From: Escherichia phage EP-B-K_E2
Sequence record: OR992644.1
DNA: 43,553 bases
Direction: 5' to 3' (one strand)
Below the pieces are notes generated by a model. The model ran no database searches, was not told where the DNA came from, and saw only the letters and a program-made list of their open reading frames with translations. Below are positions 1 to 43,553 of the stretch, one piece after another. Within the stretch, counting starts at the first letter, position 1. Each line of letters opens with the position of its first letter. The position numbers and the translations under genes are program-made.

Positions 1-1
1 C

Positions 2-364
2 ACAAACGGTGAAAATCTTGGTTTCGGTTTCTGTGCCGAAGTTGGGGGGTTTATAAACTGCGAACGGTCGCACGCCCTCGGAAATCAGGTAGCTGGGTTT
101 TACGCGCTTAGCAATGGGAGTATGTGGGCGCACGCGTGTGTATCTAACAACAATATAGGCCACGGCTTCTATGCCCTAAACGGGGGCGTGGTTGAAGGTA
201 ATGGGCTTAGTACCGCAGACGCAGATAGGTCCAACGCCTACAGTAATGGCGGATGGGGTTTTTACGCAGTAAATGGTGGGATAATGCAGGCGTGGAACTC
301 ATATTCAACCAATAATAGTCAGGGCACTTACGGGACCTCAAACGGTGGGATAATGCTTCCATAG
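2..364 (+). CDS. tailspike C-terminal segment (continuation of the CDS starting at 42150, across the circular junction)
   Basis: Frame of 42150 ORF continues through the 55-bp terminal overlap into frame 2 at window start; stop at 362-364; repeated GFYAxNGG beta-helix-like motifs. Confidence 0.65.
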   Translation, partial: TNGENLGFGFCAEVGGFINCERSHALGNQVAGFYALSNGSMWAHACVSNNNIGHGFYALNGGVVEGNGLSTADADRSNAYSNGGWGFYAVNGGIMQAWNSYSTNNSQGTYGTSNGGIMLP

Positions 365-370
365 GTTGAA

Positions 371-394
371 GGCCCCAAACGGGGCCTTTTCTTT
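371..394 (+). terminator. rho-independent terminator after tailspike
   Basis: GC stem ggcccc-aaac-ggggcc followed by ttttcttt. Confidence 0.6.
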
Positions 395-596
395 ACTCTT
401 CTGATAACTTCTCAAGTACAAACGCCAGTTGCGCATTAGCGGCGTCTCTTTGCTGGCGTAGTCGTAGAACCTCCTCCTCGAGTTCCTTGATACGTTTTAT
501 TTCTCGCTTTAACTGCATAGCAAGAAGTTGCTCGCGGGCGTTAAGAGCGTCTTTTATCAATTCGTTGCAAGCGTCAATATCGAACTCATTACTCAT
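393..596 (-). CDS. hypothetical coiled-coil protein
   Basis: 67-aa ORF, heptad-like charged sequence, last gene of minus-strand operon. Confidence 0.5.
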   Translation of the reverse strand: MSNEFDIDACNELIKDALNAREQLLAMQLKREIKRIKELEEEVLRLRQQRDAANAQLAFVLEKLSEE

Positions 597-2017
597 TTCT
601 TACCTCGTCTCTTCATGTAGTTAAGCAACTCTTCCTGTACAGATTTCTTCTCGTCTGTACGCGCAGCAACAACCTCATCCAGCGTGTCTTTAGCTACGAT
701 ATGGTAGAGGAACACCGGGCGCTCGTGGCCCGCCTGTTTCTGGCGTACCGGGCCGATGCGCTCAACGACCTGCAAATAGTGCTCAAGGTTCCAGCCCTGC
801 GAAATAAACGCCAGATGGTGACCGCCGTCCTGTAAATTCAAACCATGCCCGGCTGACGCAGGATGTACGCATAGGATTTCGATTTCGCCACGGTTCCACG
901 CTTCCATCTGCTTATTACCCTTAGCGCCTTTTGCAAACGCCTGTGCCTGCGGGAAACGTTTCAGGATGCGTTCCAGTTCGTGCTTGAACTGATAAGCCAC
1001 AAGCAGCGGTGCACCCTGTAACTCCTCAACAATCGACCCCAGCGCATCCAGTTTCGTGTCGTGCACTTTCTCCCAGTCTTTGGTTGCTTCGCCGTCTGGC
1101 CCCGACACATACACGGCGCCGGATGCAATCTGGAGGCACTTCGACGTCTTCGCCGCCGCGTTAGCGGCTTCAACTTCTCCGCTCTCCAGTTCCGCGAATA
1201 ACTTCTCCTCCATATCGATGTACGCCTGACGCGCTTTCTTAGGCAGGTCGATTTCAACCGGTACAATAATCGGCGCTTCACAACCAAACCACTCGGCAGC
1301 GTCAATCGTGAGACTAATGTCTTTCATCTTCTGATGAATCTCAGTATCCGCACCCGGGCGGGCGTGATATTCACGCGCCATAGCCGACTTACCTTTCTGC
1401 ACTGAGTTAAACCAGCGGTCGGTGAATGCCGTGTACGATGAACCGAGGCGCTCTCCTGCGTCGATAAACCAGTTCTGGCCCCACAAGTCCTTGAGGCCGT
1501 TAGGTGATGGTGTACCAGTCAGGTTGATGAAACGCTTAACTTTACCGAATGCCACTTTGCTGAGCGCCTTCGCTCGCTTGCTCCCACCCGAACAGCTGCG
1601 GAAAGATTTTAGCTTCGTGCTTTCATCGGCAACGATAACCGTGAAAGGCCAGTCGTCTTTGCCGTAGTAGTCAATCAGCCATTCGATAACTTCGTAGTTA
1701 GTGCACACCACGTTAGCATCTGACTCCAGCGCCGCGATGCGGCGCTTCTCCGAACCAGTTGCATCTACGACACGCAGACAAGGGAATTGCCATTTCTCTT
1801 GTTCAGCGGGCCACGTACCGGACGCAACACGTAACGGGGCAAGGATTAACACGCGGTCCTCTTCCGTAAGCTGCCCGTTGCGGAACAGGCGGTTGAGCAC
1901 CCACATAGTGGAGGAGGTTTTACCTCCCCCCATTCCGCACCAGATATTACAGCGCGGGTGTTGCAGCATGAACGAAGTCATGAGCTTCTGGTACTCGCGC
2001 CTTTGAAACTTACTCAT
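593..2017 (-). CDS. SNF2/DEAD-like superfamily 2 DNA helicase
   Basis: Walker A GMGGGKTS, DExx-like VADES, helicase C-terminal region; 474 aa. Confidence 0.75.
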   Translation of the reverse strand: MSKFQRREYQKLMTSFMLQHPRCNIWCGMGGGKTSSTMWVLNRLFRNGQLTEEDRVLILAPLRVASGTWPAEQEKWQFPCLRVVDATGSEKRRIAALESDANVVCTNYEVIEWLIDYYGKDDWPFTVIVADESTKLKSFRSCSGGSKRAKALSKVAFGKVKRFINLTGTPSPNGLKDLWGQNWFIDAGERLGSSYTAFTDRWFNSVQKGKSAMAREYHARPGADTEIHQKMKDISLTIDAAEWFGCEAPIIVPVEIDLPKKARQAYIDMEEKLFAELESGEVEAANAAAKTSKCLQIASGAVYVSGPDGEATKDWEKVHDTKLDALGSIVEELQGAPLLVAYQFKHELERILKRFPQAQAFAKGAKGNKQMEAWNRGEIEILCVHPASAGHGLNLQDGGHHLAFISQGWNLEHYLQVVERIGPVRQKQAGHERPVFLYHIVAKDTLDEVVAARTDEKKSVQEELLNYMKRRGKK

Positions 2018-2939
2018 TTACCGCCCCCATGAATGCCTTTATAAATTCAGCGGCTACTTGCGGGACGATGGCATTGCCATAACCGCGCAATCGTCCCACT
2101 CTGGCGGGTACCCCATTAGCCAGCGGGAATGTGCCGGGTTCAACTGGCCTGAATTTTCCATCCCGGCATCCGAGCCAGTCAGTATCTGACCAGAAGCCGT
2201 GATGCGGATTGGCCGCGATATTTTCAGTCCCTGCTCCGTTGAGTAGTCCAGCCTGCTGAATGTCCTGTCCTTCCCGTCCTTGCGAATAACTGTCTCTCCG
2301 CTCCCTCTGTAATCGTTCGCGGTCGGCGTCACCCATGCCGCCATCGCAGCGGCCCATCCCAGTTTGTTCGGTTTCGTCCTGCCGTCTGTGCTGCGCATGT
2401 TCACGTCGTTTGTTATCAGTGATACCGCCGGTGTGGGCCAGTCTGTGCGCGCCGAAGAACAGCCTGTCGCGTTTGTGCGGTGCGCCGACGCTACAAGCTG
2501 GGAGTACGGCAAACCCGACGGCGTAGTCTTCTCCTTCCAGGTGAGTTTGTAAATCGCACATCCACGATTTTGCAATTGCTGGCGCAACTTGTTCCCCAAA
2601 GATGACTGGAGGACGGCACTCGCTGATGAGGTCAAGGAAGACTGGAGCGAGGTGTCTCGGGTCGAACTGTCCGAGTTGTTTTCCTGCCGCGCTAAACGGT
2701 TGGCAAGGCGGGCTTCCCGTCCAGAGAGGCGTATCTTCCGAAACTCCCGCAAGTCTGAGCGCGAGAGACCAGCCGCCGATACCAGCGAAAAAATGACACT
2801 GGGTGAACCCGTCAAGGTCTTCTGGTCTAACTTCAGTAATGCTTCTTTCATCTACAACTCCAAAAGGTATGTGGCCCTGTTTTATCAACTCGCGCAGCCA
2901 CGCGGTTGCGCCTTTATCCCACTCGTTGTAATAGTTCAT
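2010..2939 (-). CDS. DNA (cytosine-5)-methyltransferase
   Basis: Motif I FFAGIGG, motif IV GSPPCQPFSAAGK (PCQ), motif VIII RDRLFFG, C-terminal GNAIVP. Confidence 0.75.
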   Translation of the reverse strand: MNYYNEWDKGATAWLRELIKQGHIPFGVVDERSITEVRPEDLDGFTQCHFFAGIGGWSLALRLAGVSEDTPLWTGSPPCQPFSAAGKQLGQFDPRHLAPVFLDLISECRPPVIFGEQVAPAIAKSWMCDLQTHLEGEDYAVGFAVLPACSVGAPHKRDRLFFGAHRLAHTGGITDNKRREHAQHRRQDETEQTGMGRCDGGMGDADRERLQRERRDSYSQGREGQDIQQAGLLNGAGTENIAANPHHGFWSDTDWLGCRDGKFRPVEPGTFPLANGVPARVGRLRGYGNAIVPQVAAEFIKAFMGAVNE

Positions 2940-31612: not shown

Positions 31613-32025
31613 TGGGCTATTTCGAGGACTTAACAAAAGCGTTCGATGTGCCGCTGGTAGCCTTCGGAACCGCCAACGGCATCAAGGTTGCGCTTGAAAA
31701 CATCGACGCGCCGACGTCAACAGATACGCCGTATCTGGCTAGTTACATGTTGCTGGCGGATACGGAACAGGCGGATTTGTTCTTCACAGAACAACGCTCT
31801 GGTATTTATCAGGTTGACATTAACTACGCATCGGTGAAAGGTAGCGCGCCAATCAATAAAATGGCAGACTTACTTAACACGGCGTTTAAAGCAGGTAAGT
31901 CATTTTCACGTAACGACATCTGCGCCGAGGTTCAATCGGTTAGCCTGGGGCCGCTGATTGTAGAAAACGGATGGGCCAAACGGCCATTGTCAATTAACTT
32001 TATTGCATTCACCAAGAGGCTGTGA
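31609..32025 (+). CDS. putative tail terminator/completion protein
   Basis: Position immediately upstream of major tail protein. Confidence 0.4.
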   Translation: MMGYFEDLTKAFDVPLVAFGTANGIKVALENIDAPTSTDTPYLASYMLLADTEQADLFFTEQRSGIYQVDINYASVKGSAPINKMADLLNTAFKAGKSFSRNDICAEVQSVSLGPLIVENGWAKRPLSINFIAFTKRL

Positions 32026-33194
32026 ATATGGCTACAACTCCTTTTAAGGGCGCGAATACCGCGCAATTCTATGTGGCGGAAACTACCCCGGGCGTAACAC
32101 CTACTAACCCGGTCTGGTCGCCGTTGCGTAACACCGGCGGTGTCCCCGCTGTAACCCGCGATGCGCTGACTTCTAACGAACTGGACGGCAGCCGAGAAAC
32201 CACATCCATTCGCACCGGTAACAAACAGGTAAGCGGGGAGTATGCCATCGAACTTAGCTCACGTAGCCAGGATGATTTCCTTGCGGGTGCTATGACTTCT
32301 ACGTGGCAGGATGGGGTAGAGATTACGGGTGCCAAAATTACGGTCGCCCCAGCAGGTAAAACATTCACCCGCGCTGCCGGTAGCTTCATTACTGACGGTG
32401 TAGAAGTTGGCGACCTGATTGCGTTCACCGACTTAACCGGCGACAACGCAAAACCGTTTATCGTGACCGCGGTTTCTGCTCTTGTAGTTACGGGTTCGGG
32501 CATTCAGCACACGCTGACCGCAGAGACTGTAACCACCAACGCTAAAACTGGCGATAAACTGGAAACCAGCAACACATGTAAGACGTTCTCCATCCTGACA
32601 TGGTTCAAAGGCCAGTGCGGAAACCCGGACGCGTACATGTTGACCAAAGGCGTGGAAATCTCTGGCTTCACCATTGAACAGGCGGTGAACGCAATGGTAA
32701 CTGGCAGCTTCCCGTTCATCGGCCTGAGCCAGGAGATTCTTACCGCACCGCCGTCTGGCTCTAATTTCTCTCAGGTGACGTTCACCGATGAGCCGTTCTC
32801 TTCTGTAGATGTGTCTGTGCTCGACGGTTCTACACCGTTGCGTTGCGACACACTTACCATCACCAACGACAACGGCGCTTCCGCACAGTTTGAACTAGGG
32901 AACAGTAGCGTTGCATTCGTGGAACGTGGCCGCGCGGCTAACACCTTCTCTATCTCCGGCAAGCTGTACGACATGGCGATGATTCAGAAGTTTATCAACG
33001 AACAGCAGGTGGAGATTAACTCTATTCTGGCGGGGGTAAACGGGGCTATGTCTTTCAGTTTGAAACGTGCCGAACTTACGGCGGTTACACCAGAGATTGG
33101 CGGGCCTGAGTCAATCACTCAGTCTATTGAAGGCCAGGCTACGGGCAACCAGTACCAGTCGTCTATTGTTATCCAGCGTATCACCTACGCATAA
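32022..33194 (+). CDS. major tail protein
   Basis: 390 aa, upstream of chaperone and tape measure, followed by strong terminator. Confidence 0.55.
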   Translation: MNMATTPFKGANTAQFYVAETTPGVTPTNPVWSPLRNTGGVPAVTRDALTSNELDGSRETTSIRTGNKQVSGEYAIELSSRSQDDFLAGAMTSTWQDGVEITGAKITVAPAGKTFTRAAGSFITDGVEVGDLIAFTDLTGDNAKPFIVTAVSALVVTGSGIQHTLTAETVTTNAKTGDKLETSNTCKTFSILTWFKGQCGNPDAYMLTKGVEISGFTIEQAVNAMVTGSFPFIGLSQEILTAPPSGSNFSQVTFTDEPFSSVDVSVLDGSTPLRCDTLTITNDNGASAQFELGNSSVAFVERGRAANTFSISGKLYDMAMIQKFINEQQVEINSILAGVNGAMSFSLKRAELTAVTPEIGGPESITQSIEGQATGNQYQSSIVIQRITYA

Positions 33195-33642: not shown

Positions 33643-34773
33643 TCATCCCAGCATCTCCGGTGAAATAGTTAAACGTGCAACCTCGCCATATTCGGCGCTA
33701 TAAGTAATTACATTTGCACTACGGCCCGACATCCACCCTCCGCGGGAAGCATATGCATCTTTCGCCGCCAGGGTTCGGTGCTGCTCGACAATCATGTTAC
33801 GGCTTTCTACGATTTTCTGATGGTGCAGGTGGCCTACGTGGGCGTAGCTGTACTCGCTTTCGCCAAACGCTTTGCGGAACTTAGCTATCATAATTGGTTC
33901 GACCACCTCAAACCGACATTTATGGCCATGTGTAAAGAACAGAGTCGTTTTGCCGTGTTGTACCATCTTGTACACATCCGGCGACGTATCGACGAACACA
34001 CGAGGCTCATTGTCGTACAGCGTACTGAACATCTCAGCCAGCCAAATCATTCCGCTTTCGTCGTGGTTCCCTTGCACTATAAGCAAACGAACATTTCTAT
34101 GCTTAACAAGTGCCATATCTACAACACGGCGTACCATACGAATCATGTAGCGGACCAGTTTCTGATAGCGCGTGTCAGCGTCAAGGACATGACCACTAGT
34201 TGGCGTAACGGCATCCAGGCTATCGAAGTGCGCGAAGTCGCCTAGCAGGTTAATAACTCCAGTTCCTGCATCCGGTGCTTTCTGAAACGCCGCGTCGAAC
34301 CAGCGGGAGAACAGGTCTTCCGCAATCTTCATGTCCCAGTCGTCGCCGCTCTCGTCGGCCCAGGCCAGCATACCGAGATGAAAATCAGATACCGTGTAAA
34401 GATTGAGTAGCTTGTCGTCGCGTTTGGCGCGTGCTGCTTTAACAGGGGCGACTGGCGTAATCTCTGATTTCATTCCTTCGATTACGGCTTTCATCAACTC
34501 GACCTGACGTTCGGCATCGGTGTCTGTCTTAACCCATTGCAACTTAGTGTTGCCGAACTCGTCCACCAGTGACGACGTTCCTTTAATCTTGTAGCCGTCT
34601 GGTACTAGATGGCTAACGTCACGCCCGTGGCCTACGCCTTTTTTCGCCAGCTTCGCTTTACGGATACGAATAACGCGGTCTGAGATGCCGTATTTACGGG
34701 CGATATCTATATTCTTCATCCCGGCGTTCAATTCTTCCTGTAACTGTTCGTCGGTTATTTTCTTCTGGGCCAT
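33643..34773 (-). CDS. HTH domain fused to calcineurin-like metallophosphoesterase
   Basis: N-terminal HTH IDIARKYGISDRVIRIRKAKL; motifs SDFHLG, GDFAHFD, VQGNHDE, THGH, VGHLHH; start set to ATG with SD gaggaag. Confidence 0.7.
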   Translation of the reverse strand: MAQKKITDEQLQEELNAGMKNIDIARKYGISDRVIRIRKAKLAKKGVGHGRDVSHLVPDGYKIKGTSSLVDEFGNTKLQWVKTDTDAERQVELMKAVIEGMKSEITPVAPVKAARAKRDDKLLNLYTVSDFHLGMLAWADESGDDWDMKIAEDLFSRWFDAAFQKAPDAGTGVINLLGDFAHFDSLDAVTPTSGHVLDADTRYQKLVRYMIRMVRRVVDMALVKHRNVRLLIVQGNHDESGMIWLAEMFSTLYDNEPRVFVDTSPDVYKMVQHGKTTLFFTHGHKCRFEVVEPIMIAKFRKAFGESEYSYAHVGHLHHQKIVESRNMIVEQHRTLAAKDAYASRGGWMSGRSANVITYSAEYGEVARLTISPEMLG

Positions 34774-34811
34774 GCTTACTTCCTCGTGTTTAGGATTTGT
34801 CTTATAGTAGC

Positions 34812-35003
34812 CTACTTCTCTTTCACGTTCGAGTTGCAAGCCCAGATTAAAATAAATACCCACGGCAGCAGAACCCAGCCAAGAAACAGATTAGCCATGA
34901 ATATCGCCAACTTCGCTTTATGGTTACGGAAGTACGCAACCAGGAAAGGCGCGAAATAAGCGAGCAGTGCAAACAGAATTAAGGAAACTGGTAAACTGGA
35001 CAT
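34812..35003 (-). CDS. small membrane protein (alternative start 35018)
   Basis: Two hydrophobic helices; SD aagggg 6 nt before second ATG; directly downstream of promoter 35034-35062. Confidence 0.5.
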   Translation of the reverse strand: MSSLPVSLILFALLAYFAPFLVAYFRNHKAKLAIFMANLFLGWVLLPWVFILIWACNSNVKEK

Positions 35004-35618: not shown

Positions 35619-35951
35619 GTGGATAAGCATAAAATCAGAGAGTTTGATTCTATAGCTGACGGACACGAGCAGGCGCTTATCGCGATGGGTGTAATCGATA
35701 AGAAAAAACGTGCAGCGCGACGGGGTGGGCCGGAATGTCCGCCCCTTTTTATATCCACCTTTGAGACGTATTGCGACATTAAGTTTACGCGACACGTGCG
35801 CGAGGACGCTGTAGTATTGTTTGCAAGAGAATCCGTTACGTGGCAAGACCTGAAAGCCTATCTCGACGTTACGAAAAAACAGCTTAGCCTGTTCGAGATA
35901 GACATTATCATGGGCTTAGAAGCAATCTTTGAAGGTAGAAACCATGGCTGA
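35619..35951 (+). CDS. tail assembly chaperone extension (T-like), probably expressed by -1 frameshift; frame open from 35562
   Basis: No SD before GTG; frame-0 ORF overlaps end of 35170 gene around GGAAAAG at 35577-35583. Confidence 0.45.
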   Translation: MDKHKIREFDSIADGHEQALIAMGVIDKKKRAARRGGPECPPLFISTFETYCDIKFTRHVREDAVVLFARESVTWQDLKAYLDVTKKQLSLFEIDIIMGLEAIFEGRNHG

Positions 35952-38217
35952 TATCGCTAGCTTGATAGTACGAGTATCCGCAACCGGCGTCGATAAAGTC
36001 ACATCACAACTGAACGGGCTTACTAAAGCCGCAGGCGCTGCGGCTGCCGCCGTTGTCAGCCTGGAAACCGCTAAGCAGGTGTTCAGTGCGCTGGTGGACT
36101 CCCAGCGAAACTTCGATAAGCTGAACTCCGGCCTAATCACAATGACCGGGAGTGCTGAGAACGCGGCTAAGGCTTTCAGCGTCCTGCAACAGTTCGCAAA
36201 AGAAACCCCGTATGGCCTCAATCAGGCGGTCGAGGGCTTCACTAAACTTGTAGCTCTTGGTCTTAACCCCAGCAAAGAGGCGTTAATCTCCTACGGCAAC
36301 ACCGCCGCTGCGATGGGCAAAGACCTTAATCAGATGATTGAGGCTGTGGCGGACGCCAGTACATTTGAGTTTGAGCGACTGAAAGAGTTTGGTATCAAGT
36401 CGTCACAGCAGGCGGATACAGTGTCGTTCACGTTCCGCGGTGTTACCACCACGGTTAAGAAGAACTCCGAAGAGATTCAGAAATACCTTCTGAATATTGG
36501 TAACACTGATTTCGCCGGAGCGATGGAAACGCGTTCGAAAACCCTTGACGGGCAGTTATCCAGCCTCGCGGACTCCTTTGACGGCCTTGTACTTGCGGTG
36601 GCGCAATCAGGTTTCGGCGACGCCGTAGGTGAGCAAGCTGCGAGGGCGGAAGATGCTATCACGGCGCTTACTGATGCCATCGCGTCTAATGAGATAGCAG
36701 CCACGCTCCAGGATTGGGTAACACTGTTCAATGAATCGTTCAAGTTTATCTCTGATGCCTTGAACGACCTGGCATACGATACCGAGGACAAATCCGTGGA
36801 TATGTCCGACTCGCTGGGGGGTATACCGGACGCTATCCGTGAGTGGTTGCCCGACATTCAGCAGACATTCCACGAGGTTATTGCGTGGTTCCAGCGCATT
36901 GACGATTATGCCGTAGCGTTAGGCCAGACCCTTGCCGACGTGTTTGACCCGAGCAAAACGGCGGCGCTTACATTTAAAAACCTTACCGCAGAGGCTGATG
37001 CCGCATACGATGCCAGCATAAAACGGGCGGAGGCCGAGTCGCAGGCCATTACCAACAGGTCTAAGCAGCGTAAGAAAGAAATTGAGGAACAACGCAAGCA
37101 GTATGATGAGCGCAAGAAGCAAGAGATTGACTTAGCCAGCCTTGTTAATAAAAAGGGCGGAACTGGTGGAACGGGGGAAACCGACGATAAAGCAGCAAAA
37201 GCCGCCGCCAAGAAAGCAGAGCAATTGCGCAAACAGGCGCAAGATTACCTCGACACTTTGGCCCGTCAGAACAACGACGAGTTAAAAGCTATTGACGCGC
37301 AGGAACAGCAGAAACTGGCTAAAGCGAAAGAGTTCTACAGCCAGGGCGCACTGTCACTGAAAGAATACGAACAAGCTAAAACAGCTATCGTCCTCGAAGC
37401 CGGACAAAAACGGCAAGATGAACTGGATAAACGCCAGAAAGAAGCCCTGGAAAAGCAGCAGAAAGGCGACGACTTCATGGCTCAGATTATGGGCCAGAAC
37501 GCTACTGAGCTTGAGCTTCTCGACATCCAGGAACAGCAGAAACTGGCGGTAGCGGATAAGTACCGCGAGCAGGGTTTGATTAGCGAGAAGCAGTATCAGG
37601 CCGCGCTTAACGCCATCAACGAGCAATACGCCACCAAGCGTGCTGATGCAACGGCAACGGCCTTTGGTAACATGGCCTCAAACATCGGGTCTGCGTTGGG
37701 TGAGGCTTCTGGCGCGTACAAGGCATTCGCTATCGTACAGGCCACCATAGCCACGTACACCGCGGCTATCGAGGCGTACAAGTCCACGGCGGCTATCCCC
37801 ATAGTCGGCCCGTTCCTGGCCCCTGTAGCCGCTGCCGCTGCCGTTGGTGCAGGTATGGCTCAGGTTTCCGCTATCAGGTCAGCACGTGAACAAGGTGGTC
37901 AGTTATCCGCGGGGCAGGCTTCTACTATAGCAGAACGCGGAAAACCAGAAGTTATCATGCCTGCCGGGGCATCGCGTGTGCGCACCGCACAGCAGATGAA
38001 AGAAATTATGGGCCAAAACGGGTCTTCTTCCGGCCCGTCCAATGTTACTATCGTAAACAACACGAGTTCTCAAATCGGCAACGTATCCACCGAGCAAGAT
38101 GATGAAGGCCGTTTGCGTATCATCATCGAGGAGCAAGTGGCAGCCTCTTTGCAGAACAGCAACAGTAAGATTAGCAAGGCCCGCAAGGCCACAAGAAATG
38201 CGCCGGGGTTTAAATAA
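35944..38217 (+). CDS. tail tape measure protein
   Basis: 758 aa, Ala/Gln-rich coiled coil, internal repeats, position. Confidence 0.8.
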   Translation: MADIASLIVRVSATGVDKVTSQLNGLTKAAGAAAAAVVSLETAKQVFSALVDSQRNFDKLNSGLITMTGSAENAAKAFSVLQQFAKETPYGLNQAVEGFTKLVALGLNPSKEALISYGNTAAAMGKDLNQMIEAVADASTFEFERLKEFGIKSSQQADTVSFTFRGVTTTVKKNSEEIQKYLLNIGNTDFAGAMETRSKTLDGQLSSLADSFDGLVLAVAQSGFGDAVGEQAARAEDAITALTDAIASNEIAATLQDWVTLFNESFKFISDALNDLAYDTEDKSVDMSDSLGGIPDAIREWLPDIQQTFHEVIAWFQRIDDYAVALGQTLADVFDPSKTAALTFKNLTAEADAAYDASIKRAEAESQAITNRSKQRKKEIEEQRKQYDERKKQEIDLASLVNKKGGTGGTGETDDKAAKAAAKKAEQLRKQAQDYLDTLARQNNDELKAIDAQEQQKLAKAKEFYSQGALSLKEYEQAKTAIVLEAGQKRQDELDKRQKEALEKQQKGDDFMAQIMGQNATELELLDIQEQQKLAVADKYREQGLISEKQYQAALNAINEQYATKRADATATAFGNMASNIGSALGEASGAYKAFAIVQATIATYTAAIEAYKSTAAIPIVGPFLAPVAAAAAVGAGMAQVSAIRSAREQGGQLSAGQASTIAERGKPEVIMPAGASRVRTAQQMKEIMGQNGSSSGPSNVTIVNNTSSQIGNVSTEQDDEGRLRIIIEEQVAASLQNSNSKISKARKATRNAPGFK
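37300..37547 (+). repeat. in-frame direct repeat inside tape measure gene
   Basis: Exact 20-mer caggaacagcagaaactggc at 37300 and 37528 (228 bp apart); protein repeat IDAQEQQKLA / LDIQEQQKLA. Confidence 0.7.
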
Positions 38218-39591: not shown

Positions 39592-42137
39592 TCCTGCACT
39601 ACACGCGAAACGCTGAAGGCGCTTTCGACCGTACAAAACACGTCGGGATGCCGATGGAGTTTGTCGTTAACCGTATCCCGGACGGCGTGCCGGTGCGCGT
39701 CTATCTCGGTGAGATTGGTGATGATACCGACGTAACTGACGACTTCGACGCGCTTAAAGATGAAGACGCTGTGTACCACATTATTGAGGGCGCTGGTGGT
39801 GGGATAGGTAACGCTATTGGGAAGGTATTCGGCTTTATCCTTAAGCCAATCGCTAAGTTGTTCGGGCTTAACACCGCGGCTAACGCTAATTATTCAGCAA
39901 CCAACAATCAGACAACGTCACCGAACAACAGCCTTACCGACCGCTCCAACAAGCCGCGACCTTACGAGCGCTCTTATGACATATGCGGTACTGTGCAGAC
40001 AATCCCTAATGACCTGATGCAGACGTATAAGGCGTTCAACTCAACTGGTGCTTTGCTGGAGTATTCATACTACGACGCCGGGCGCGGGCATCTGCATATC
40101 GAAGCGGATGGTGTCACAGAAGGTGATACCCAGATTAGCGGTATTACCGGCTCCTCTGTTGCTGTGTACGCCCCATACACTTCACCAAACAACACAACTA
40201 CACCGCAGTTACAGATCGGCGACGTTATAAACCAAAAATTATACATTACTTTTATGAACGATGATGTTGACGGTGTTGTGCTTAAGGCACCTAACGATTT
40301 AGGCGTAGTTTTTGACGGTGAAACGGCATTCGTATCCGTCTCGGGCAACACCGGCACCCTAACCGAAACTTCGTCGGCGGTAGATTTCAGTGAAGACATA
40401 TCCGTAGGTGACATCGTAGTTTGCAGCCCTATGTGGACGACAAACGACGTGTCTCTTACTGGTCATTACCGGGTTTTAGACGTATCAGAAAACACGGTTA
40501 CTCTAAATATTACAGGGCGCGAATCCGACTGGAACGCCGCCGTAGGGTATGCCATTCGGGGGAACGACGCAGAGAACTCTATGCGCCCGCAGGACACATA
40601 CAACAAGTCGCTAACCGACTGGTACTACATCACCAGAGGAAGTGTTGACCGTGTCCTGGCTAACTTCGCCGGCGCTAATGGTATGTACCGCTACAACGGC
40701 AGCTATAGCACTGCAAGCGCCACGATAGAGCTGCAATTTCAAGCGGTAAACGAACAAAGACAGCCGATTGGCGATATTTACACGACACGGGTTGTAGTAA
40801 CTGGTCGCAACACCGATTACACTGGAACAAGCGCCTACGGCTACCTTCCAATGGCAAGCAGGGTCCGCGTAAGAGCTAGACGGGTTAGCAACTCTGATAA
40901 AGATTTCGACGGTACGGTAAGTGACGAGATAACGTTCATCAACCTGTACGGGCAGTCTCTGGATACAACCCCCCACTACGGTAACAGAACTACGGTACAT
41001 TGCGCCCGTAAACAGACCCCGCGAGCCGCCAGTATCGACAACCCGGAACTGCGCATGATTGCAACCGAGATGTGTTACAAATACCTCGGTAATGGTGTAT
41101 TCGATACGGTAATGACTCCGAACACGCAGGCGGTGCAGTCACTAATCAGACTGGCTCGGGACCCTGCGGTTGGCAATCTGGAACTGACAACGGCAAACAT
41201 GGACAAGTTACTTGCTGTGCAGGAAGAGATTGAGTCCTATTTCGGAAGTGAATTAGCGGGTCAGTTCTGTTACACGTTCGACGACTACGACACCACGATG
41301 CAGGACATCGTTCAGACTATAGCTGAAGCCGTGTTCTGTACCGCGTACCGTAAAGGCGCGGATATTATGCTGAGATTCGACCGTCCTGTTGCTGGGCCTG
41401 AAATGGTGTTCACCCACCGCAGTAAGACGACCGGTACAGAGAAATGGTCCCGCACGTTCAACGATTCGACAACCTACGATAGTCTGTCGTTCTCGTACAT
41501 CGACCCGGATACTAACGTACAGGAAACGATTTATATCCCGGAAGAACTCGGAGCAAACACCGAGGAGTACGAATCTAAGGGCGTGCGCAACTATCAGCAA
41601 GCGTACTGGCTGGCGTGGCGTCGCTATCAGCGCAACGCGTTAAGTAAAGTTGTCGTAGAGTTCGAAGCCACCGAAGAAGGCGCTCTCGCTACTCCCGGCG
41701 GCGTAATCAGCGTGGTTAAAGGCTCGCGTATCGCGCCGCAGGATGGCTATGTTGTTGCCGTTAATGGGCTTACACTTACACTATCCCAGCCTGTTACGTT
41801 TACTCCTGGCGATGACCACTCCATCATTCTTAAGAAGCGCGATGGCTCGGTGCAGAGTATCTCTGTTATCAAAGGAAGCCACGACCGAGAAGTGATTATG
41901 CTCTCCGCACCTGAGGAGGCAATTTACACAGGGAATAGCGCACTAAAAACTGAGTTTTCATTCGGCAACGAAGCAAGGCATAATGCCCAGAAGATAGTTG
42001 TTTCTTCAATCGACCCGGGCGACGACCGCACGGTCAAGATTACGGGTTACAACTATGACGACGGATTCTACAAATACGACGGCGTCGCACCTTTAGGTCG
42101 CGGTTTCTCCGACGGATTCAGCAATGGTTTTAATTAA
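39582..42137 (+). CDS. tail tip / central fiber protein (lambda J-like host specificity protein)
   Basis: 851 aa, last large tail gene before tailspike. Confidence 0.6.
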   Translation: MAIILHYTRNAEGAFDRTKHVGMPMEFVVNRIPDGVPVRVYLGEIGDDTDVTDDFDALKDEDAVYHIIEGAGGGIGNAIGKVFGFILKPIAKLFGLNTAANANYSATNNQTTSPNNSLTDRSNKPRPYERSYDICGTVQTIPNDLMQTYKAFNSTGALLEYSYYDAGRGHLHIEADGVTEGDTQISGITGSSVAVYAPYTSPNNTTTPQLQIGDVINQKLYITFMNDDVDGVVLKAPNDLGVVFDGETAFVSVSGNTGTLTETSSAVDFSEDISVGDIVVCSPMWTTNDVSLTGHYRVLDVSENTVTLNITGRESDWNAAVGYAIRGNDAENSMRPQDTYNKSLTDWYYITRGSVDRVLANFAGANGMYRYNGSYSTASATIELQFQAVNEQRQPIGDIYTTRVVVTGRNTDYTGTSAYGYLPMASRVRVRARRVSNSDKDFDGTVSDEITFINLYGQSLDTTPHYGNRTTVHCARKQTPRAASIDNPELRMIATEMCYKYLGNGVFDTVMTPNTQAVQSLIRLARDPAVGNLELTTANMDKLLAVQEEIESYFGSELAGQFCYTFDDYDTTMQDIVQTIAEAVFCTAYRKGADIMLRFDRPVAGPEMVFTHRSKTTGTEKWSRTFNDSTTYDSLSFSYIDPDTNVQETIYIPEELGANTEEYESKGVRNYQQAYWLAWRRYQRNALSKVVVEFEATEEGALATPGGVISVVKGSRIAPQDGYVVAVNGLTLTLSQPVTFTPGDDHSIILKKRDGSVQSISVIKGSHDREVIMLSAPEEAIYTGNSALKTEFSFGNEARHNAQKIVVSSIDPGDDRTVKITGYNYDDGFYKYDGVAPLGRGFSDGFSNGFN

Positions 42138-42149
42138 AGAGGACTCTAT

Positions 42150-43553
42150 ATGTCAAGCGGATGCGGTGACGTTTTAAGCCTGGCGGATTTACAGATTGCG
42201 AAGAAGCACCAGCTTTTCGAGGCTGAGGTTATCACAGGCAAATCAGGCGGCGTATCAACTGGTACTGATATTGATCACGCAACCAACGCTGTTACTGGGC
42301 AAGTGCAGAAAACAATGCCAGCCATTTTGAGAGATGTAGGATTTGAACCGGCGGCGTTCGATTTTTACACTGGAGGTACTCTTAGCGTGACTGACCGTAA
42401 TAAGGCGGTGTTATGGCCTTTAGGTTCTGGCGGAGATGGTGCGTGGTATAATTGGGAGGGCGCTTTGCCGAAAGTGGTCCCCGCTGCGTCTACTCCTGCT
42501 ACCACCGGGGGCATCGCCGCTGGTGCGTGGAAGCTAACTATGGACCCTACATTACGCAGTGACCTGACTAATGTGGAGTCAGACCTGGCCGAACTTAATT
42601 CCGATTTTGAAGCGTATAAGACATCACTGGCATCTGCAAACAGTGGCCTCCTGGTTGATGATAGCAACATAAAAGTCCAGGGCGACTTTAACAACACCGT
42701 AATCCGCACTCAGCACTCAAAAAATAATGACACACCAACCGTAAAAGATTTTGGTGCAATAGGCGACGGCGTAACCGACGATACTGCGGCACTCCATGCC
42801 GCGTTTGCCTCCGGTGTGTACTATTTCCCTCACGGCTTATATAAGACTACTACCGCATCGACGATATCACAGTTAGCCAAATCCGACGGCCCGGGTGTGA
42901 TAACGTTTAACGGGGTTAACTTCCCTGCGTCGCGCACGGTTGATAATGCTGTGTATCTTGTGTCGGTTCCTGAAATGTTCCCTACTATCCAGGCGGCCCT
43001 TGACTTCTTCAGTTTTAAACGTGCAGCTAATAACGCGTGGTTTCGCATTCAGGTCGATAATGGGGTGTACCAGGTTAAAAACATTCGTTCCAGGGTAAAA
43101 GACTGGCACGCCTTGCAAATTATAGGTAATGAGTCAAACCCTCTGGACTGTCAATTACAAGTAGACACTACTGACAACGGGTGTGGTTTTATTTTTGAAG
43201 ATGGGTTTGGGGCCGCGGTTATAAACGGCTTCCATATTTTCGGTGTAGGAGGATGGTCATCTAAGGGTGTATGGGCTAATCAAAGTTACGGAGCCGCTAT
43301 TCGTGTTATAGGGTCAGGTTCTAAGGTATCAACAGGAACCGCCATTCGTACGGAAAGAATATATTACGGATTCCAGGCGTTGTACGGCGGCACTATCAAC
43401 TGTCAGGGGACTACCGCCGTTCAGGCAGGGGACTGCGGATACCATGCATATGCTGCGACGATTAATGCTTACGGATGCACCGCACAGGACTGTGCGCACA
43501 CAAACGGTGAAAATCTTGGTTTCGGTTTCTGTGCCGAAGTTGGGGGGTTTATA
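42150..43553 (+). CDS. tailspike with pectate-lyase-like beta-helix (N-terminal part; continues at 2-364)
   Basis: SD aaagagga; KDFGAIGDGVTDDTAALHAAFASG pectate-lyase-type motif; no stop before window end; total 571 codons if circular. Confidence 0.7.
   Translation, partial: MSSGCGDVLSLADLQIAKKHQLFEAEVITGKSGGVSTGTDIDHATNAVTGQVQKTMPAILRDVGFEPAAFDFYTGGTLSVTDRNKAVLWPLGSGGDGAWYNWEGALPKVVPAASTPATTGGIAAGAWKLTMDPTLRSDLTNVESDLAELNSDFEAYKTSLASANSGLLVDDSNIKVQGDFNNTVIRTQHSKNNDTPTVKDFGAIGDGVTDDTAALHAAFASGVYYFPHGLYKTTTASTISQLAKSDGPGVITFNGVNFPASRTVDNAVYLVSVPEMFPTIQAALDFFSFKRAANNAWFRIQVDNGVYQVKNIRSRVKDWHALQIIGNESNPLDCQLQVDTTDNGCGFIFEDGFGAAVINGFHIFGVGGWSSKGVWANQSYGAAIRVIGSGSKVSTGTAIRTERIYYGFQALYGGTINCQGTTAVQAGDCGYHAYAATINAYGCTAQDCAHTNGENLGFGFCAEVGGFI
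43499..43553. repeat. 55-bp terminal redundancy identical to 1-55
   Basis: Exact identity; lies inside tailspike coding frame, consistent with circular-contig overlap. Confidence 0.9.

What the first reader, a model, noticed from the sequence alone, without database searches (positions are those of the whole stretch)
42150..43553. Tailspike with pectate-lyase-type beta-helix is the likely depolymerase and host-range determinant
After a conserved N-terminal anchor region the protein shows the KDFGAIGDGVTDDTAALHAAFASG motif typical of pectate-lyase-superfamily beta-helix enzymes, and the wrapped C-terminus has repeated GFYAxNGG units. It probably degrades a capsule or O-antigen polysaccharide.
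Basis: partly seen in the sequence, partly recalled or inferred. Interest (0 to 1): 0.35.

Follow-up and report, generated by a model that had tools for sequence, protein, structure and literature searches.

The report
Kagunavirus tailspike with swapped beta-helix domain
This gene encodes the tailspike of an E. coli Kagunavirus: a genus-conserved tail anchor joined to a horizontally acquired beta-helix domain from an uncharacterised family, which most likely binds and cuts a host surface sugar polymer. It is an ordinary kind of phage protein with an unusual cassette.

Summary
A 570-aa ORF starts at 42150 and runs off the window end. It continues at 56-364 because the contig carries a 55-bp terminal overlap. 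The motif KDFGAIGDGVTDDTAALHAAFASG is at aa 199-222. GFYAxNGG-type units are at aa 459, 482, 505 and 536.

The first ~124 aa are the tail anchor shared by Guernseyvirinae tailspikes. AlphaFold2 models aa 195-570 with pLDDT 96.6 as regular three-strand coils, and every Foldseek hit is a right-handed parallel beta-helix protein. So "no beta-helix" is refuted.

Two corrections apply. The motif sits in a ~75-aa accessory cap that only 18 of 161 family representatives carry. The helix core (aa ~271-570) has no Pfam, NCBIfam or PHROG model and lacks the GH28, CE8, AlgE and PL1 signature motifs.

The core family has 333 clusters at E<=1e-30. Its only conserved charged residues are D428 and a carboxylate at 463, which are candidate catalytic residues.

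Compared with another Kagunavirus, DNA identity falls from ~100% to 40-65% at nt ~42522 and recovers after the stop codon. The receptor-binding domain is therefore a swapped cassette.

The window length equals the published genome size of phage EP-B-K (E2), whose plaques have halos. Enzyme activity, chemistry and substrate remain untested. This is a new member of a known kind, of modest interest.

The parts
42137..42143 (+). Ribosome-binding site AAGAGGA, six bases before the ATG. The upstream 851-aa tail-tip gene stops at 42135-42137.
   Evidence: Sequence read; ORF list.
42150..42521 (+). N-terminal tail-anchor domain, aa 1-124, conserved across Guernseyvirinae tailspikes. It includes the PF18668 match at aa 98-129.
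   Evidence: PHROG 29731 E 2.9e-64; PF18668 E 7.9e-13; 562 phage records by tblastn; ~100% DNA identity to another Kagunavirus over 42222-42521.
42522..42734 (+). Start of the swapped cassette: an alpha-helical neck (aa 133-163) and a linker (aa 164-195).
   Evidence: DNA identity to locus L003 falls to 40-65% from ~42522. AlphaFold2 predicts helix 133-163, with low confidence because the alignment is shallow there.
42735..42959 (+). Accessory cap module, aa 196-270, carrying KDFGAIGDGVTDDTAALHAAFASG (aa 199-222, nt 42744-42815).
   Evidence: PF12708 matches aa 198-235 only. Only 18 of 161 family representatives carry the motif. Several homologs start after it, for example P0006 and P0011-13. 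pLDDT is above 90.
42960..43553 (+). Beta-helix core, first part (aa 271-468). It begins with VPEMFPTIQAAL...VDNGVY. It includes Y405-Y406 (43362-43367), D428 (43431-43433), E463 (43536-43538) and the first repeat unit GFCAEVGG (43524-43547).
   Evidence: AlphaFold2 pLDDT 96.6; Foldseek beta-helix hits; conservation in 161 representatives.
56..364 (+). Beta-helix core, wrapped part (aa 469-570) plus the TAG stop at 362-364. Repeat units are GFYALSNG (95-118), GFYALNGG (164-187) and GFYAVNGG (257-280).
   Evidence: Contiguity is confirmed in EP-M-A and P0001.
368..399 (+). Intrinsic-terminator-like hairpin (9-bp stem, 6 GC pairs) followed by a T-run. It lies between the tailspike gene and the convergent minus-strand genes.
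   Evidence: DNA identity to the related phage recovers here, over 362-470.
1..55 (.). Duplicate of 43499-43553. This terminal overlap of a circularised contig splits the gene at the linearisation point.
   Evidence: Exact 55-bp overlap.

Best explanation
This is the single tailspike, or receptor-binding protein, of an Escherichia Kagunavirus (subfamily Guernseyvirinae). The phage is probably EP-B-K (E2), which infects enteropathogenic E. coli.

Residues 1-124 dock the protein to the tail tip. This domain is shared by the whole subfamily. From about residue 125 the gene is a horizontally exchanged cassette made of an alpha-helical neck, a ~75-aa cap with the GDGxTDD motif, and a ~300-aa right-handed parallel beta-helix that runs to the last residue.

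The helix belongs to a widespread but uncharacterised phage and prophage beta-helix family. The most likely mechanism, which is inferred, is that the presumably trimeric spike binds a host O-antigen or capsule chain along the helix and cleaves it, letting the virion reach the outer membrane. Its specificity would set host range. The invariant D428 and the invariant carboxylate at position 463, with Y405/Y406, are the candidate active site. I favour acid/base glycoside hydrolysis over beta-elimination.

Shown here: gene structure, anchor homology, predicted fold, cassette boundary and residue conservation. Inferred: trimer state, catalysis, reaction chemistry and substrate.
For: Gene and context: a 570-aa ORF follows the tape-measure, DUF1833 and 851-aa tail-tip genes, and is followed by a terminator and convergent SNF2 helicase and methylase genes.

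Anchor: PHROG 29731, PF18668, 562 phage records, and 88% DNA identity to K1-type Kagunaviruses that stops inside the first ~60-120 codons.

Fold: pLDDT 96.6 and pTM 0.92, with PB1/PB2/PB3 strand triplets repeating about every 23 aa. Foldseek returns only beta-helix proteins, including the Sf6, Det7 and CBA120 tailspikes, phi29 gp12, pectin methylesterase, Pel9A and GH87. In BFVD the phage phi15 tail spike aligns with query TM-score 0.61. By profile search the only solved relative of the core is the Andhra RBP gp15, PDB 8EGR, a trimeric beta-helix, at E 5e-25 (PMC9710869).

Cassette: identity to another Kagunavirus is ~100% up to nt 42521, 40-65% through the stop codon, and 80-95% again at 362-470.

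Family: 333 clusters at E<=1e-30. Members sit in tail modules of unrelated phages and prophages from a baseplate-J phage contig, Komagataeibacter, Moraxella and Acinetobacter. D428 is conserved in 160 of 161 representatives. Position 463 is E in 159 and D in 2. These are the only conserved charged residues across hosts with unrelated glycans, which points to shared chemistry rather than shared binding.

Phenotype: EP-B-K (E2), a Kagunavirus with a reported genome of exactly 43,553 bp, gives clear plaques with halos. EP-M-A gives a diffuse surround.
Against: No enzymatic data exist for any member of this core family.

All structural matches to characterised enzymes are weak: best E 1.9e-4, TM-score at most 0.47 and identity at most 14%.

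The signature motifs of GH28, CE8, AlgE epimerases and PL1 are absent.

A register analysis of the strand pattern places D428 and E463 at opposite edges of the PB1 face. They may therefore be too far apart to act together within one subunit. This is my inference, because coordinates could not be measured here.

The nearest solved relative, Andhra gp15, has no demonstrated activity.

The halo report is generic: many phages in that study gave halos, and equating the window with EP-B-K (E2) rests on genome size and genus only.
Confidence: 0.7

Rival explanations
1. The protein is a binding-only tailspike. The beta-helix recognises a surface glycan or protein but does not cleave it, and the conserved Asp/Glu are structural or bind a metal ion.
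For: Beta-helix adhesins exist; PfbA appears among the Foldseek hits. The closest solved relative, Andhra gp15, is described only as a receptor-binding protein. No catalytic-family signature was found. The two carboxylates may lie far apart within one subunit, by my register inference.
Against: Binding residues should vary with the receptor. Here the same two carboxylates and a Tyr-Tyr pair persist across 161 representatives, none more than 50% identical to another, from unrelated hosts. Halo plaques are reported for the probable source phage. Beta-helix tailspikes of enterobacterial phages are generally enzymatic (background in PMC10408124).
Confidence: 0.15
2. The protein is a depolymerase that works as a polysaccharide lyase (beta-elimination on a uronic-acid-containing capsule or O-antigen), or as a carbohydrate esterase or epimerase, rather than as a hydrolase.
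For: The best Foldseek E-values are to AlgE4/AlgE6 epimerases. The best target-normalised TM-scores are to pectin methylesterases (up to 0.44 in the full-length run, 0.39) and to the pectate lyase Pel9A (0.42, 0.39). The invariant Tyr405/Tyr406 could act as a Tyr base. The Andhra paper notes alginate-lyase similarity for its RBP.
Against: No conserved Lys, Arg or His exists in the family to serve as a Bronsted base or neutralise a carboxylate. The YG(F/I)DPH, DFIFG/QDT and PL1 motifs are absent. The AlgE hits have TM-scores of ~0.2 with rmsd 14-17 A, and are driven by the N-terminal cap motif.
Confidence: 0.15

Closest known systems
Kagunavirus and Jerseyvirus (Guernseyvirinae) tailspikes, for example the K1G, K1H and K1ind endosialidase tailspikes and the O78- and O145-specific Kagunavirus receptor-binding proteins
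   Same: The N-terminal anchor is homologous (60-78% aa identity over aa 1-140/170). The gene sits in the same position after the tail-tip gene. The architecture is the same: anchor, neck, then an exchangeable receptor-binding domain (PMC10408124).
   Different: The receptor-binding domain is unrelated to theirs. DNA homology to the K1-type phages ends within the first ~60-120 codons. Among 50,697 phage records only EP-M-A shares this domain closely.
Enzymatic beta-helix tailspikes: P22, Sf6 and HK620 endorhamnosidases/endoglycosidases, CBA120 TSP1-4 and Det7
   Same: The predicted fold is the same right-handed parallel beta-helix, joined to an N-terminal anchor, and it has conserved acidic residues. 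Sf6, Det7 and CBA120 tailspikes all appear among the Foldseek hits. The PF18668 N-domain is shared with CBA120 TSP1.
   Different: Identity is at most 14% and TM-score at most 0.47. The helix is much shorter (~300 aa). It has no C-terminal trimerisation or chaperone domain, since the helix runs to the last residue. Catalytic residues cannot be aligned.
Staphylococcus phage Andhra receptor-binding protein gp15 (PDB 8EGR)
   Same: It is the only solved structure detectable by sequence profile against the helix core (E 1e-16 to 5e-25). It shares the ~23-aa zigzag repeat units and is a trimeric beta-helix receptor-binding protein.
   Different: The match comes from overlapping repeat-level alignments. 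The GD...AE carboxylate pair is not consistently aligned. The host (Gram-positive, wall teichoic acid), the anchor and the phage type all differ. Foldseek did not rank it in its top 50.
Pfam PF12708 (Pect-lyase_RHGA_epim), the 'pectate lyase superfamily protein' annotation
   Same: The GDGxTDDTxA cap motif and the beta-helix fold. The homologs P0007 and P0009 carry this name in NCBI.
   Different: The match covers only 38 residues and scores 1 bit above the cutoff. The core has no Pfam model, and the GH28 motifs are absent.

Membership tests
Guernseyvirinae (Kagunavirus) tailspike | N-terminal anchor homologous to the subfamily's tailspikes | tested here: met
   PHROG 29731 E 2.9e-64 over aa 1-170; PF18668; tblastn 60-78% identity to Kagunavirus, Jerseyvirus and Serratia phage Eta spikes.
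Guernseyvirinae (Kagunavirus) tailspike | Gene lies directly downstream of the tail-tip (J-like) gene at the end of the tail operon, in a Kagunavirus backbone | tested here: met
   ORF order runs tape measure, DUF1833, 851-aa tail tip, then this gene. The upstream gene is 86-90% identical in DNA to the K1G, K1ind and ZCEC5 phages. Locus L003 has the same order.
Right-handed parallel beta-helix (pectate-lyase-like fold) | Stacked three-strand coils forming a right-handed helix | tested here: met
   The AlphaFold2 model has pLDDT 96.6 with regular strand triplets. All significant Foldseek hits have this fold. This is a prediction, not an experimental structure.
Pfam PF12708 / GH28-related 'pectate lyase superfamily' | Domain-wide match to the family profile | tested here: inconclusive
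   The score passes the gathering threshold (28.1 against 27 bits), but only profile positions 4-48 of 213 are matched.
Pfam PF12708 / GH28-related 'pectate lyase superfamily' | GH28 catalytic motifs NTD, G/QDD, G/SHG and RIK | tested here: not met
   Only a GHG at aa 503 was found. It lies inside a repeat unit and is not conserved in homologs. NTD, G/QDD and RIK are absent.
CE8 pectin methylesterase, AlgE mannuronan epimerase and PL1 pectate lyase | Family signature motifs: GxYxE, QDT and DFIFG; YG(F/I)DPH; vWiDH and RxPxxR | tested here: not met
   None is present. The structural matches are weak.
Phage tailspike depolymerase (functional class) | Conserved acidic catalytic residues on the helix | tested here: inconclusive
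   D428 is conserved in 160 of 161 representatives and a carboxylate at 463 in 161 of 161. Their geometry and role could not be measured.
Phage tailspike depolymerase (functional class) | Homotrimer | not testable with these tools
   Only monomer prediction was available. The neck helix at aa 133-163 is compatible with a coiled coil.
Phage tailspike depolymerase (functional class) | Cleavage of host polysaccharide, seen as a halo | not testable with these tools
   The evidence is indirect: halo plaques are reported for EP-B-K (E2) and a diffuse surround for EP-M-A (PMC10938718).

The most novel reading that the evidence does not exclude
The helix core (aa ~271-570) is the founding example, in a cultured coliphage, of an undescribed carbohydrate-active enzyme family. 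The family has 333 clusters at 50% identity with E<=1e-30 and no Pfam, NCBIfam, PHROG or CAZy-type signature. Its active site would be built from an invariant Asp (GD motif) and an invariant Glu/Asp (GxGxxAE motif) at opposite edges of one helix face. That geometry would work only across subunit interfaces of the trimer, as in the Sf6 tailspike.
Probability: 0.3. Interest if true: 0.45.

Novelty: new member of a known kind. Interest (0 to 1): 0.27.

Why it matters
Tailspike receptor-binding domains decide which E. coli serotypes a phage can infect. They are also used as anti-virulence enzymes and as parts for engineered phages.

This cassette is rare among cultured phages, with only one other isolate. 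It has a clean recombination boundary at nt ~42522, directly after the conserved anchor, which makes it a ready-made swap module for Kagunavirus engineering.

It also gives a tractable entry point, a lytic coliphage with an available host, into a large unstudied beta-helix family with two obvious residues to mutate. Otherwise it confirms the standard picture of modular tailspikes.

Tried and rejected
Searches and checks that gave nothing useful:
- PHROG and NCBIfam scans of the core alone found no family.
- Pfam on 21 homologs gave only PF12708 cap matches and generic PF13229 hits in the longer members.
- A blastn 'distant' search of the receptor-binding-domain DNA against 5,426 complete E. 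coli genomes found no match. The cassette was therefore not recently taken from an E. coli prophage, and no serotype clue was obtained.
- Foldseek against the PDB with both the full-length and the domain-only models could not distinguish hydrolase, lyase, esterase and epimerase relatives. All matches were weak.
- A deeper 77-sequence profile against the PDB again found only Andhra gp15 and the cap motif.
- Regex tests for the GH28, CE8, AlgE and PL1 motifs were negative.
- I checked whether the stand-alone 372-aa homolog P0002 is preceded by an anchor-like protein. The upstream 513-aa and 49-aa proteins show no similarity to this anchor.

Considered and rejected:
- The 114-aa antisense ORF at 42365-42709 is most likely a chance ORF inside a conserved coding region. 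It was not tested beyond its position.
- The apparent truncation of the gene is not real. The wrap across the window ends is confirmed.

Full report
**1. What is in the sequence**

The ORF starts with ATG at 42150, six bases after an AAGAGGA ribosome-binding site. The 851-aa upstream gene stops just before it.

The ORF is still open at the window end. Window 1-55 is an exact copy of 43499-43553. After removing this 55-bp overlap, the reading frame continues at position 56 and stops at 362-364, giving a 570-aa protein.

The junction is not an artefact. Escherichia phage EP-M-A carries the last 381 residues as one uninterrupted tblastn piece at 99.7% identity. A metagenomic protein, P0001, is 570 aa and 99% identical.

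A terminator-like hairpin follows at 368-389. Beyond it lie convergent minus-strand genes for an SNF2-type helicase and a C-5 cytosine methylase.

The repeat units are GFCAEVGG, GFYALSNG, GFYALNGG and GFYAVNGG at aa 459, 482, 505 and 536, spaced 23, 23 and 31 residues apart. Only 17 of 20,000 shuffles of the protein produced even one match to the pattern.

**2. The phage and the anchor**

The region from 39582 to the window end matches Kagunavirus genomes (K1G, K1ind1-3, ZCEC5, phiWAO78-1 and others) at 86-90% DNA identity. For most of them the match ends inside the first ~60 codons of this gene, and at the latest near codon 116. Only EP-M-A, a Kagunavirus isolated on enteropathogenic E. coli, matches throughout, at 99.8%.

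At the protein level:
- PHROG 29731 'tail spike protein' covers aa 1-170 with E 2.9e-64.
- Pfam PF18668 (Tail_spike_N) covers aa 98-129.
- tblastn finds the first 140-170 residues in 562 phage records, mainly Salmonella and Escherichia Guernseyvirinae, at 57-78% identity.

The neighbouring genes are tail tube, tape measure, DUF1833, and an 851-aa tail-tip protein with a weak Phage-tail_3 match.

The window length, 43,553 bp, is exactly the genome size published for Escherichia phage EP-B-K (E2). That phage is a Kagunavirus isolated on EPEC from the Kebena river and is the sister of EP-M-A (PMC11605402). The authors recorded 'clear plaque with halos' for it and 'clear plaque with diffused surrounding' for EP-M-A (PMC10938718).

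**3. The receptor-binding domain is a swapped cassette**

I aligned the window with locus L003, which comes from another Kagunavirus. Its spike, P0004, has the same anchor but a C-terminal part only 51% identical.

DNA identity along the alignment runs as follows:
- 82-98% through the tail-tip gene.
- ~100% over 42222-42521.
- 40-65% from ~42522 through the stop codon.
- 80-95% again at 362-470.

The breakpoint lies at about aa 124, close to the C-terminal end of the PF18668 match (aa 98-129). This fits published work showing that Kagunavirus anchors follow taxonomy while receptor-binding domains follow host serogroup (PMC10408124).

**4. Fold**

The full-length model was confident only from aa 195 onward, because few sequences in the alignment cover the anchor.

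A second model of aa 195-570, built on an 18-sequence alignment, gave pLDDT 96.6 and pTM 0.92. It shows strand triplets recurring about every 23 residues right to the C-terminus.

Foldseek against the PDB returned only right-handed parallel beta-helix proteins. These included AlgE4/AlgE6 epimerases, pectin methylesterases, Pel9A, GH87 glucanase, the Sf6, Det7 and CBA120 tailspikes, and phi29 gp12. All were weak: best E 1.9e-4, TM-score at most 0.47 and identity at most 14%.

In BFVD the best match was A0A0X8WP19 (E 3.2e-14, query TM-score 0.70, 26% identity). It is probably the Ralstonia phage RSP15 protein that tblastn also found. Generic tail spikes such as phi15 followed, at query TM-score 0.61.

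The beta-helix prediction holds, but there is no close solved or characterised relative.

**5. The cited motif is an accessory cap, and the core is an uncurated family**

Pfam PF12708 matches only aa 198-235, scoring 28.1 bits against a cutoff of 27.

The helix proper starts at VPEMFPTIQAAL...VDNGVY (aa ~273). This is a second helix-plus-strand 'cap-like' element.

Homologs show that the first cap is separable:
- P0006, P0011-13 and P0019 begin after it.
- P0018 has it partly deleted.
- Only 18 of 161 family representatives carry a GDGxxDD motif upstream of the core.
- Most hits in the exhaustive search align only from profile position ~80-90 onward.

The core has no PHROG or NCBIfam model.

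The exhaustive search found 333 clusters at 50% identity with E<=1e-30 and 1,083 with E<=1e-10. Members occur in these contexts:
- As a stand-alone 372-aa gene after baseplate and fibre genes in a phage contig.
- In the tail module of a T7-like prophage of Komagataeibacter.
- In Moraxella, Enhydrobacter and Acinetobacter genomes.
- In IMG/VR viral contigs.

No DNA-level relative exists in 5,426 complete E. coli genomes.

By sequence profile, the only solved relative of the core is the Andhra RBP gp15 (PDB 8EGR), at E 1e-16 to 5e-25, through overlapping repeat-level alignments. It is a trimeric beta-helix with no demonstrated activity (PMC9710869).

**6. Mechanism**

I aligned 161 representatives, none more than 50% identical to another. 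Apart from glycines, an Asn ladder and small core residues, the conserved positions are:
- Y405, conserved in 153 of 161. Seven of the eight exceptions are Phe and one is Met.
- Y406, conserved in 159 of 161.
- D428, conserved in 160 of 161.
- E463, conserved in 159 of 161. The two exceptions are both Asp.

No Lys, Arg or His is conserved.

The hosts have unrelated surface glycans, so this pattern suggests a shared chemical step rather than shared binding. I therefore favour an enzymatically active depolymerase, and acid/base glycoside hydrolysis over beta-elimination.

Several points weaken this:
- No family member has been assayed.
- The GH28, CE8, AlgE and PL1 signature motifs are absent.
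- A register analysis of the PB1 strands uses the conserved Gly of each GFYA unit as anchor. It places D428 at position -2 and E463 at +4 on adjacent coils, at opposite edges of the same face. This is my inference only, because the tools did not expose the model's coordinates.

If that geometry is right, the two residues would cooperate only across a subunit interface. From my own knowledge, that is the arrangement in the Sf6 tailspike. Alternatively, they may have separate roles.

The rivals are a binding-only spike (0.15) and a lyase, esterase or epimerase chemistry (0.15).

**7. Verdict**

The finding is correct and largely ordinary: a modular Kagunavirus tailspike with a beta-helix receptor-binding domain.

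The added value is fourfold:
- The exact gene structure across the contig wrap.
- The cassette boundary.
- The correction that the cited motif is an accessory cap rather than the catalytic core.
- The recognition that the core belongs to a sizeable uncharacterised family with two invariant carboxylates.

Novelty is 'new member of a known kind', and interest is about 0.27.

Noticed in passing
window 1-55 and 43499-43553: An exact 55-bp terminal direct repeat. It looks like the k-mer overlap left by an assembler on a circular or circularly permuted contig. The unique genome length is 43,498 bp, and the linearisation point cuts the tailspike gene in two.
   Followed up: yes
window 33643-34863 (minus strand): A 406-aa ORF on the opposite strand, with a weak calcineurin-like phosphoesterase match (PF12850, E 1.6e-5, below the cutoff). 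It sits inside the plus-strand tail module, between the tail-tube gene (32022-33194) and the tape-measure gene (35929-38217).
   Followed up: no
window 2010-2939 (minus strand) compared with L003 9809-10642: After the SNF2 helicase gene this phage has a C-5 cytosine DNA methylase (PF00145). The related Kagunavirus contig L003 has an N6/N4 methylase (PF01555) in the same position. This is a second exchanged cassette, presumably for anti-restriction.
   Followed up: no
L001 8001-9119 (protein P0002); also P0003 and P0005: These 372-374-aa homologs (45-65% identity) begin exactly at the cap motif and have no anchor. In L001 the gene follows baseplate-J, a 513-aa fibre-like protein and a 49-aa ORF, and it precedes the lysis genes. 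How such an anchorless helix would attach to a virion is unclear.
   Followed up: partly
L009 (BMPS01000026.1, labelled Streptomyces cinereus JCM 3040): This 29-kb contig has 42% GC and is 94-95% identical to Moraxella osloensis and Enhydrobacter loci. It is almost certainly contamination in the Streptomyces assembly.
   Followed up: partly
window 42960-43553 and 56-361 (aa 271-570): The helix core is unusually rich in Cys (9 in 300 aa), Gly (45) and Asn (28). C429 and C461 lie next to the invariant Asp and Glu, in GDCG and GFCAE. Whether they form disulfides or simply pack the core is unknown.
   Followed up: no
window 42365-42709 (minus strand): A 114-aa antisense ORF lies wholly inside the conserved anchor-coding part of the tailspike gene. 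It is most likely a chance ORF.
   Followed up: no
PMC10938718 compared with PMC11605402: The isolation paper typed EP-B-K (E2) and EP-M-A by PCR as 'Myoviridae, Felix O1 virus'. The genome paper places them in Kagunavirus, which has siphovirus morphology. The window's gene content agrees with Kagunavirus.
   Followed up: partly
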